Of a stretch of DNA of 64,000 nt, positions 1-63,461 are shown piece after piece (position 1 is the stretch's first letter; every line of letters starts with the position of its first letter). The stretch is from Octopus vulgaris (taxonomy: Eukaryota). The notes below the pieces were generated by a model. It saw only the letters and a program-made list of their open reading frames with translations, had not been told where the DNA came from and did no database searches. The stretch spans positions 119,040,001-119,104,000 of the forward strand of contig OX597818.1 of NCBI GenBank assembly GCA_951406725.2. The letters are read 5' to 3'. Position numbers and translations under genes: made by a program.

Positions 1-272
1 AGAGACAACGCTCTTTATTAGATTCCTATTGTAGCAAACATGCACATTGTGTAGATTGCGCATAATTTGTTCAGACTTGAAAGGTTGATGTATCCAAATA
101 TCACAATACAGGTGCTTCTTTGACAATCCACGAAACATAGATAAAAGCGGCTTACTTTTACAATGTCATTTAAACGTATAAAAATAATTATAAATTTTTA
201 GATTAGACACAAACTTACATACCTAAATGCGTATACACACATATCACGCACACACACATGTACACATATATG

Positions 273-9636: not shown

Positions 9637-9999
9637 AGGCGTATGAGTGGCTGTGAGGTAAGTAGTTTGCTTACGAACCACATGGTTCCGGGCTCAGTCC
9701 CACTGCGTGGCACCTTTGCCAAGTGTCTTCTACTATAGCCTCGGGCCGACCAAAGCCTTGTGAGTGAATTTGACAGACGGAATTGGAAAGCCCGTCGTAT
9801 ATATATGTATATATATATAAATAATAATAAATATTAGGGAATGAATCCAAAATTACAGGGAAAAATCAGATTTAGGGTTAAATCCAATTTTATAGTAAAA
9901 TATTATATAATATAATTCGAGACAAAATTTATATTAACATTTTATGTATTGATTAAGTCTTTCCTTGTTTGGTTTTAAAATAGTGGTTTTGTCTCGAAT

Positions 10000-10045
<46 letters not shown>

Positions 10046-51360: not shown

Positions 51361-51607
51361 TATATATATTGTAAGTATGATCGTTGTGATTGTAAATGGA
51401 AGACGAACGGCATACGTTAAACCGAGTTCTGTTATATACCTATAAGCTGTGATTGTTACAGGAACTACTCAGATCCGTATATTTTATATTTATATATATA
51501 TATATATATATATAAAATATTATTAGAGACAAAACCACTATTTTGCAAAACAAACAAGGAAAGACTTAATCAATACATAAAATTTTAATAAATAGTCAAA
51601 AAAACCG

Positions 51608-51650
51608 CCACTACAATTGTTTCTTGTCTTGATCGACAATCTTCAGGTGG
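51608..51650 (-). ncRNA. Type-I hammerhead ribozyme (inverted-arm copy)
   Basis: Exact reverse complement of 51685-51727. Confidence 0.78.
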
Positions 51651-51684
51651 ACTTCCAATAAGTCAAAACTGACTTATTGGAAAT

Positions 51685-51727
51685 CCACCTGAAGATTGTC
51701 GATCAAGACAAGAAACAATTGTAGTGG
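51685..51727 (+). ncRNA. Minimal type-I hammerhead ribozyme with intact core
   Basis: CCAC-CTGAAGA-TTGTC-gatcaa-GACAA-GAA-AC-aatt-GT-A-GTGG: stems I, II and III all pair; GUA cleavage triplet at 51721-51723. Confidence 0.8.
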
Positions 51728-51902
51728 CGGTTTTTTTGACTATTTATTAAAATTTTATGTATTGATTAAGTCTTTCCTTGTTTGTTTTGAAAAATAGTGG
51801 TTTTGTCTCTAATAATATTTTATAATATTTTACTATAAAATTGGATTTAATCCTAAATCTGATTTTTTCCCTGTAAATTTGGATTTATTCCCTAATATTT
51901 AT

Positions 51903-62669: not shown

Positions 62670-62757
<88 letters not shown>

Positions 62758-62765
62758 TATATATA

Positions 62766-62940
62766 TGGCGGTTTTTTTGACTTTTTATTAAAATTTTATG
62801 TATTGATTAAGTCTTTCCTTGTTTGTTTTGCAAAATAGTGGTTTTGTCTCTAATAATATTATATAATATTTTACTATAAAATTGGATTTAATCCTAAATC
62901 TGATTTTTTCCCTGTAAATTTGGATTTATTCCCTAATATT

Positions 62941-62946
<6 letters not shown>
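62766..62946 (+). mobile_element. Monomeric P1 copy (no inverted arm)
   Basis: Near-identical to 51725-51905; flanked by (TA)n on both sides. Confidence 0.92.
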
Positions 62947-62997
<51 letters not shown>

Positions 62998-63337: not shown

Positions 63338-63461
63338 AACACCGACTATCACCAACCAGGTATAACTCCTTCAGCCAACACCGACTATCACCCACCAGGT
63401 ATAACTCCTTCAGCCAACACCGACTATCAGCCACTAGGTATAACTCCTTCAGCCAACACCG
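63338..63461. repeat. 39-bp minisatellite x3.2
   Basis: Unit aacaccgactatcacc(a/c)accaggtataactccttcagcc at 63338, 63377 and 63416. Confidence 0.95.

What the first reader, a model, noticed from the sequence alone, without database searches (positions are those of the whole stretch)
62766..62946. Monomeric copy begins at the predicted hammerhead cleavage site
Seen: in P1 the predicted cut is GTA|GTGGCGG (51723/51724). This separate copy starts at TGGCGG directly after (TA)n, 1-2 nt downstream of that bond, and runs to the same 3' end. Inference: the reverse-transcribed RNA had its 5' end set by self-cleavage, which would be a genomic record of ribozyme activity in vivo. One copy could be a chance 5' truncation.
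Basis: partly seen in the sequence, partly recalled or inferred. Interest (0 to 1): 0.8.

Follow-up and report, generated by a model that had tools for sequence, protein, structure and literature searches.

The report
Retroelement copies starting at ribozyme cut
This is a short copy of a Penelope-like jumping gene that starts one base after the predicted cut of the element's hammerhead ribozyme, and because such starts are about 3.5 times more common than nearby starts in the part of the genome counted, the ribozyme likely cuts a minority of the element's RNAs in living cells, although most copies run straight through the site.

Summary
Observation confirmed: 62766-62946 begins at +2 of the predicted cut (51723/51724) of a minimal, dimer-type hammerhead. 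It is a solo 5'-truncated terminal repeat of a young Penelope-like element with Hydra-clade protein motifs, not a copy of P1. On contigs 1-12, leading 5' ends number 18 in the 5 positions around the cut against 32 in the 33 upstream (p=4e-5), with a sharp left edge. Older subfamilies repeat this (8 vs 17, by eye). A larger pile follows at +7..+35 and decays, resembling the profile at the inferred transcription start; an equally AT-rich intron stopped 0 of 30 arms. Against: 29 of 30 unselected arms span the cut; the best upstream 5-nt window holds 11; the T-run pile also appears in arms whose partner spans the cut; no RNA end was seen. Verdict: likely (about 0.6) in vivo self-cleavage of a minority of template RNAs; about 0.5 for this single copy. 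Ribozyme-set 5' junctions are known for R2; I found no such genomic evidence in print for Penelope-like elements. Earlier scan notes on two other genomes report related edges (one mild, one at the ribozyme's start).

The parts
62766..62946 (+). Solo 5'-truncated terminal-repeat (pLTR) copy of the Penelope-like element, from +2 after the predicted hammerhead cut to the long ('tail') 3' end
62675..62765 (.). Upstream TA / 4-nt microsatellite target flank; last two bases give possible microhomology with -2/-1
62947..62995 (.). Downstream (TA)n target flank
51685..51727 (+). Minimal type I hammerhead in P1's right arm; predicted cut between 51723 and 51724; stem III is an 8-nt palindrome that pairs between two molecules in a cofold
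51666..51898 (+). P1 right arm: uncut, spliced pLTR copy (splice junction 51675/51676) with the long 3' end
51506..51665 (-). P1 left arm: inverted, uncut, spliced copy with the short 3' end (about +95)
9798..10015 (.). Third, more diverged two-armed insertion of the family in the window; its + arm starts about 20 nt downstream of the cut

Best explanation
The copy is a 5'-truncated terminal repeat of a young Penelope-like retrotransposon, and it likely comes from a template RNA whose 5' end was set by hammerhead self-cleavage, a fate that likely befalls a minority of the element's RNAs. Shown: element anatomy (ORF, intron, hammerhead, two 3' ends, inverted arms, TA targets) and a spike of genomic 5' ends at the cut followed by a decaying pile. 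Inferred mechanism: the element's protein nicks (TA)n DNA and starts reverse transcription inside the RNA at +95 or +175; the cDNA runs to the RNA's 5' end, which is the transcription start (-71) in uncut spliced RNA, far upstream in unspliced RNA, or +1 when two hammerheads have paired through their palindromic stem III and cut; the cDNA end is then joined to the target or folded back, usually after losing some bases to reach an AT-rich microhomology. About 3% of arms keep the exact edge; up to about a quarter to a third would come from cut RNA if the +7..+35 pile is mostly trimmed cut ends.
For: Spike: 18 of 130 leading ends in -2..+3 vs 32 in -35..-3, 1 in -5..-3, 1 in +4..+6 (183 arms on contigs 1-12, of which 15 excluded as indel/rearranged, 26 second arms with a spanning partner and 12 shorter arms set apart). 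Genome-wide targeted list: 23 rows, 2 point deletions, one palindrome counted once, 20 insertions; 7 start exactly at +1 with a non-matching base before, 7 more are compatible with +1, 5 at +2, 1 at +3 (by eye). Replicate in older subfamilies without the T7 run: 8 at -2..+3 vs 17 upstream, 47 downstream, 28 register-shifted or deleted, of 100 listed of 121 (by eye). Position-specific in arms with either 3' end (tail 8 vs 9, short 10 vs 23). Downstream leading ends decay 31, 17, 6, 3, 0, 9 over +7..15, +16..25, +26..35, +36..45, +46..55, +56..67 (66 of 100 rows), although +26..35 is the most AT-rich (p=5e-6). AT control: 0 of 30 unspliced arms end within 300 nt of a 78-93% AT intron. Positive control: spliced arms pile at the inferred start with the same shape, 18 of 100 exactly at -71 and 45 at -66..-63 (by eye; 4 and 11 of 30 by script). 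An ORF-bearing copy starts at -1/+1 (L069). L143 has an arm starting at -1/+1 fused to 20 A and an uncut upstream arm, as an end-to-end template jump would give. 4 of 17 rows stop matching at -1 and none at -13..-3. Hammerhead core, stem I and four stem II pairs are constant across subfamilies while loop II and flanks change, and stem III shows a wobble intermediate and a fully compensated palindrome.
Against: 29 of 30 unselected arms span the cut; 11 of 17 matches at the tail/ORF junction span it and only 1 starts at it. Best upstream 5-nt window has 11 (18 vs 11, p=0.13). The +7..+15 pile is as strong, relative to upstream, in second arms whose partner spans the cut (17 vs 8) as in leading ends (79 vs 32; Fisher p=0.81), so the T run is a junction hot spot in its own right; their lack of the +1 spike (1 of 26 vs 18 of 130) is not significant (p=0.13). 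Solo copies alone: 8 vs 23, p=0.04. The 10.1-11.1 pair is not G-C and is often mismatched, and the monomer folds no better than shuffles (z=-0.12). Two of the four 3' stops at -1 resume far downstream and may be deletions; the -1 site offers TA microhomology. Frangieh 2024 (PMC11167929) found hammerhead mutants did not affect insertion in vitro and no RNA-seq reads beginning or ending at the site in an anole element. Upstream counts cover contigs 1-12 only (63% of bases).
Confidence: 0.62

Rival explanations
1. No cleavage is recorded. All templates are uncut; 5' boundaries reflect random truncation plus a preference for joining or folding back at T- and AT-rich microhomologies, and this copy's start at +2 is a chance junction with the TA repeat.
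For: T-run pile equally present in second arms of spanning partners (17 vs 8); upstream A/T-start positions are twice as often boundaries as G/C-start ones (1.19 vs 0.58); an upstream window reaches 11; the window copy's junction has TA microhomology; most arms span.
Against: The +1 position starts a G-rich stretch yet holds 5 ends vs 0.58 expected (p=0.001); the edge is sharp on the left (1 end in -5..-3); the excess recurs in subfamilies with other downstream sequence; AT-rich intron gives 0 of 30; decay runs against AT content.
Confidence: 0.24
2. Reverse transcriptase stalls or drops off at the folded or protein-bound but uncut hammerhead, or on the U-rich stretch just 3' of it, giving an edge near the cut without catalysis.
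For: The main pile lies just 3' of the motif (+7..+35); the element protein was reported to assist hammerhead folding in another PLE (PMC11167929); an intermolecular stem III helix would end at -2.
Against: A stall before stem I predicts ends at +4..+6, where only 1 of 130 lies; no excess 3' of stem II (about -13); U-rich intron does not stop arms; subfamilies without the T7 run show the same spike; 3' stops at -1 and the poly(A) jump in L143 are not explained.
Confidence: 0.14

Closest known systems
Hydra-clade endonuclease-positive Penelope-like elements (Craig et al. 2021, PMC8557442)
   Same: C-terminal GIY-YIG-type nuclease, DKT motif, CxCx5C linker, no cysteine pair inside the GIY-YIG core, CxxC and CxH near the end, (TA)n targets, hammerhead in the pLTR, partial tandems, inverted 5'-truncated arms, optional tail.
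   Different: Unit about 5.7 kb in L069 rather than under 3 kb, owing to a 1-3.5 kb intron; tail about 80 nt rather than 30-40; RWK present only as a variant; no tree was built.
Minimal PLE hammerheads (Cervera and de la Pena 2014, PMC4209133), in particular the D. virilis Penelope variant
   Same: Type I, 4-bp helix I, short palindromic helix III that needs a dimer, intron 3' end just upstream of helix I, proposed role in cutting precursor RNA.
   Different: No G10.1-C11.1 pair; the paper states that in vivo evidence is absent and reports no boundary histogram in the Results and Discussion read.
Poseidon element PAc of Anolis (Frangieh et al. 2024, PMC11167929)
   Same: Two 3' ends matching two internal reverse-transcription starts; AT-rich targets; both strands cut and extended; protein-assisted hammerhead.
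   Different: There the hammerhead was dispensable in vitro and no RNA-seq reads began or ended at the site; here genomic 5' ends are in excess at the site.
R2 retrotransposon HDV-like ribozyme (Eickbush et al. 2013, PMC3774820, abstract only)
   Same: Ribozyme cut sets the RNA 5' end; where it lies at the element's end, genomic 5' junctions vary through chance microhomologies.
   Different: Other ribozyme and element class; in R2 the cut defines the element's 5' end, whereas here most copies run through the site.

Membership tests
Endonuclease-positive Penelope-like element | One ORF with reverse transcriptase and C-terminal GIY-YIG nuclease | tested here: met
   L069 830-3345 (two frames, one shift) has the RT core motif and a GIY-YIG-type core; 28 of 30 homologs are 30-44% identical proteins, mostly about 700 aa. 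Pfam scans of this library gave no relevant family, so the call rests on motifs.
Endonuclease-positive Penelope-like element | Pseudo-LTR partial tandems and inverted 5'-truncated arms | tested here: met
   L069 has repeat-ORF-repeat preceded by an inverted arm; L061-L068 have long inverted structures.
Endonuclease-positive Penelope-like element | Optional tail at one end | tested here: met
   Two recurrent 3' ends at about +95 and +175; longer than the 30-40 nt described.
Endonuclease-positive Penelope-like element | Retained spliceosomal intron near the hammerhead | tested here: met
   Donor and acceptor seen in long copies; spliced junction in P1 and others.
Hydra clade | DKT motif, CxCx5C linker, CxxC and CxH, CCHH absent | tested here: met
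   against the definition read
Hydra clade | RWK motif | tested here: inconclusive
   R followed by two residues and WK at aa 42
Hydra clade | Insertion into (TA)n | tested here: met
Hydra clade | Generally short (under 3 kb) | tested here: not met
   Unit 5714 nt between the two repeats of L069; a general trait in the paper, not a diagnostic motif, so the element is called Hydra-like by motifs only.
Hydra clade | Phylogenetic placement with Hydra reference sequences | not tested
Minimal type I PLE hammerhead | Both conserved core boxes, helix I of 4-5 bp, helix II, cleavage triplet | tested here: met
   constant across subfamilies while loop II varies
Minimal type I PLE hammerhead | Palindromic helix III allowing a dimer | tested here: met
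   8-bp intermolecular helix in the cofold; wobble and fully compensated variants
Minimal type I PLE hammerhead | G10.1-C11.1 pair | tested here: not met
   T-A here, A-T or mismatched in other subfamilies; it is therefore a hammerhead variant, not a textbook member.
Minimal type I PLE hammerhead | Self-cleavage at the predicted bond | not testable with these tools
   Needs an in vitro assay or end-specific RNA-seq; only contigs were available.

The most novel reading that the evidence does not exclude
This family's genomic copies are a fossil readout of hammerhead cleavage in the germline: a quarter to a third of reverse-transcription events used a cut RNA, both cleavage products were occasionally inserted, and cut 5' ends serve as launch points for template jumps that build the tandem Penelope structure. 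The family would give the first in vivo, quantitative evidence that Penelope-element hammerheads fire, even without the G10.1-C11.1 pair.
Probability: 0.35. Interest if true: 0.75.

Novelty: new member of a known kind. Interest (0 to 1): 0.52.

Why it matters
What hammerheads do in Penelope-like elements is stated as unclear in the papers read (PMC4209133, PMC8557442), and the one in vitro transposition system found them dispensable (PMC11167929). A young family of over a thousand near-identical arms with a built-in positive control (transcription-start edge), a negative control (AT-rich intron) and subfamilies with different flanks turns the question into a counting experiment. If the reading holds, cleavage happens in the germline but is optional: it acts on a minority of templates and mostly yields short dead copies, which bears on whether the ribozyme serves the element or limits it.

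Tried and rejected
Rfam scan of the window: 0 matches at gathering score. Pfam scans of the element's ORFs and of four homologs: no relevant family; solved-structure search with one homolog: nothing below E 0.2. A first DNA search returned only the 40 best-scoring, spanning copies and is useless as a histogram. A TA-flank pattern with a variable gap wasted rows on repeat registers. A pattern anchored at +35 mixed subfamilies and was used only qualitatively. Sequencing runs: no RNA holder listed on record and no raw reads, only contigs; contigs of 8 runs showed no place where many molecules begin or end, which is no evidence either way. One possible-RNA contig stops matching at 51723, not seen in the partly listed loose ends of four other runs; not used as evidence. 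A 3'-end search in one older subfamily gave 3 rows, none ending at the cut. Rejected: that the copy derives from P1; that it is half of a split element; that an extra G before the start site marks a cap (it comes from the partner arm); that the whole +7..+15 pile proves cleavage. The upstream histogram was not extended beyond contigs 1-12 and older subfamilies were not split further, so a whole-genome count with a uniform design remains open. PMC5785218 was not held. No supplements were read; Fig. S2 of PMC11167929 and the hammerhead list of PMC8557442 may bear on novelty.

Full report
Coordinates below are element positions relative to the predicted cut: -1 is window base 51723 and +1 is 51724.

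Observation. P1 (51506-51898) is a two-armed inverted insertion whose right arm holds a type I hammerhead: a 4-bp stem I, both core boxes, stem II and a short palindromic stem III. A cofold of two copies gives an 8-bp intermolecular stem III; the monomer folds no better than shuffles (z=-0.12). The copy at 62766-62946 aligns from +2 to the same long 3' end between microsatellites. It differs from P1 at three sites and is identical to locus L036 over 181 nt, so it is an independent insertion. Rfam found nothing at gathering score.

What the element is. The 16-mer at +3..+18 has 1105 exact matches in the 2.8 Gb genome, control 0. Long copies show repeat-ORF-repeat units preceded by inverted arms. 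The ORF of L069 has an RT core, DKT, a CxCx5C linker, a GIY-YIG-type core with no cysteine pair, then CxxC and CxH, which match the Hydra-clade description (section read), though the unit is 5.7 kb and no tree was made. Pfam gave no relevant hit; of 30 homologs, the two with source names are Octopus bimaculoides proteins at 57% over a quarter to a third of the query. An intron ends at -49/-48; 449 arms retain it and P1 is spliced, which shows an RNA intermediate. Arms end at about +95 or +175, like the two internal initiation sites of the anole element (PMC11167929; parts 1-3 of 4 read). Across subfamilies the hammerhead core, stem I and four stem II pairs stay constant while loop II and the flanks change; stem III occurs as the palindrome seen here, as a wobble variant (change at -7) and as a fully compensated palindrome (changes at -7 and -4). 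The 10.1-11.1 pair is not G-C and is often mismatched.

The histogram. Of the first 30 unselected matches, 29 span the cut and 1 starts at +1. To list truncated arms I required the sequence at +15..+36 and forbade the consensus bases at -38 and -36: 170 + 141 matches, the first 100 of each listed. All listed rows were brought in; the 183 arms on contigs 1-12, where both lists are complete (63% of bases), were classed: 15 excluded as indel-shifted or rearranged, 26 second arms whose partner spans the cut, 12 shorter arms, 130 leading ends. Leading ends: 32 in -35..-3 (0.97 per position), 18 in -2..+3 (3.6; p=4e-5), 1 in +4..+6, 79 in +7..+15. Only 1 lies in -5..-3, and -2/-1 starts are compatible with +1 through one or two shared bases. 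Exact +1 has 5 against 0.58 per upstream G/C-start position (p=0.001). A genome-wide list aimed at -2..+3 gave 23 rows, i.e. 20 insertions after removing 2 point deletions and merging one palindrome: 7 exact +1, 7 compatible with +1, 5 at +2, 1 at +3 (by eye). Older subfamilies lacking the T7 run gave, by eye on 100 of 121 rows, 8 at -2..+3, 17 upstream, 47 downstream and 28 register-shifted or deleted (p=0.008). Scaling 18 to the genome gives roughly 30-40 insertions, about 3% of arms (my estimate).

Downstream and controls. A second design gave 593 matches with starts in +7..+67. Of 100 rows, 66 were leading ends (two symmetric palindromes counted twice): 31, 17, 6, 3, 0 and 9 in successive bins from +7..15 to +56..67. 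The fall from +7..15 (88% AT) to +26..35 (100% AT) runs against composition. 72 of the 100 start in +7..+35 without a spanning partner, about 430 arms against about 1070 spanning ones (rough, different anchors). None of 30 unspliced arms ended within 300 nt of the 78-93% AT intron. Spliced arms pile at an initiator-like site at -71 (my inference of the transcription start): 18 of 100 exactly there, 14 at -70..-67, 45 at -66..-63, 16 at -62..-57, 5 beyond, 2 upstream (by eye; 4, 2, 11, 8, 5 of the 30 held). That is the same shape: an exact spike, then a larger pile at the first AT-rich stretch.

Single cases. L069 is an ORF-bearing unit starting at -1/+1. L143 joins an uncut arm ending near +41, a run of 20 A and an arm starting at -1/+1, as expected if the cDNA ran off a cut 5' end and jumped to a poly(A) tail. 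In a search for 3' truncations in -13..+3, 4 of 17 rows stop at -1 and none earlier; two of the four resume far downstream, and the other 13 rows are indels or degraded copies. The control window +18..+46 had 2 true stops in 15 rows.

Results against. Most arms, and 11 of 17 matches at the tail/ORF junction, span the cut; only 1 of the 17 starts there. The best upstream 5-nt window has 11 ends (18 vs 11, p=0.13). Solo copies alone give 8 vs 23 (p=0.04). Second arms whose partner spans the cut show the T-run pile just as strongly (17 vs 8, against 79 vs 32; p=0.81), so the pile cannot be credited to cleavage alone; they lack the +1 spike (1 of 26) but not significantly (p=0.13). Unspliced arms may be a more processive class, which weakens the intron control. 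No raw RNA reads were available.

Mechanism. Shown: anatomy and boundary counts. From the literature: internal initiation, cutting and extension of both target strands, protein-assisted hammerhead cleavage (PMC11167929); dimer requirement (PMC4209133, Results and Discussion read; review PMC6765202, passages). Inferred: cDNA runs to whichever 5' end the RNA has, start site or cut, and is joined after short trimming. I put in vivo cleavage of a minority of templates at 0.62, junction preference alone at 0.24, stalling at 0.14. For this one copy, the excess fraction at -2..+3 (0.56 for solos, 0.72 overall) times that confidence gives about 0.4-0.5, a little more if trimmed ends count.

Novelty. 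The element and its hammerhead are new members of known kinds. A ribozyme setting a retrotransposon's 5' junction is known for R2 (PMC3774820, abstract only). [quoted passage not shown] Subscription papers and supplements were not seen. Earlier scan notes on other genomes report a mildly favoured cut site (e1-9850483) and an edge at the ribozyme's first bases (e1-9807999); neither was tested here, and none exists for this genome.

Noticed in passing
L143 / L568 (G000:C8:73218243-73218342): Uncut, unspliced arm ending near +41, then 20 A, then an arm starting at -1/+1; suggests a polyadenylation site near +42 (a poly(A)-signal-like hexamer lies at +23..+28) and an end-to-end template jump.
   Followed up: partly
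L545, L550, L552, L557: Arms whose match stops at -1, the 3' end of the predicted upstream cleavage product; two resume far downstream.
   Followed up: partly
window 51676-51723 (run X16, record 1): A deep contig from a possibly-RNA run of another organism matches from the splice acceptor to exactly 51723 and continues with 30 unrelated letters.
   Followed up: partly
L130, L144, L139, L164: Small deletions that touch the cut site in otherwise spanning or palindromic copies; could be imprecise jumps across a nicked RNA or simple slippage.
   Followed up: no
L183, L307, L310, L253: Short reiterations of the first 10-25 nt after the cut stacked at the 5' junction, reminiscent of repeated template re-engagement at an RNA end.
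   Followed up: no
element position -71 (loci L410-L439): Sharp 5' edge of spliced copies at an initiator-like site 23 nt before the splice donor; maps the likely transcription start of the element.
   Followed up: yes
L061-L066 (G000:C1): Insertions up to about 9-15 kb with multi-kilobase inverted and tandem segments; the intron varies from about 1.1 to 3.6 kb through internal repeats.
   Followed up: partly
window 9798-10015: Third, older two-armed copy of the family; starts about 20 nt after the cut and lacks the hammerhead.
   Followed up: partly
L544, L558, L549: Copies with dense substitutions toward TA repeats along the element; may be assembly or polishing errors or repeat conversion.
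   Followed up: no
window 63338-63461: 39-bp tandem repeat, 3.2 copies, 96% matches.
   Followed up: no
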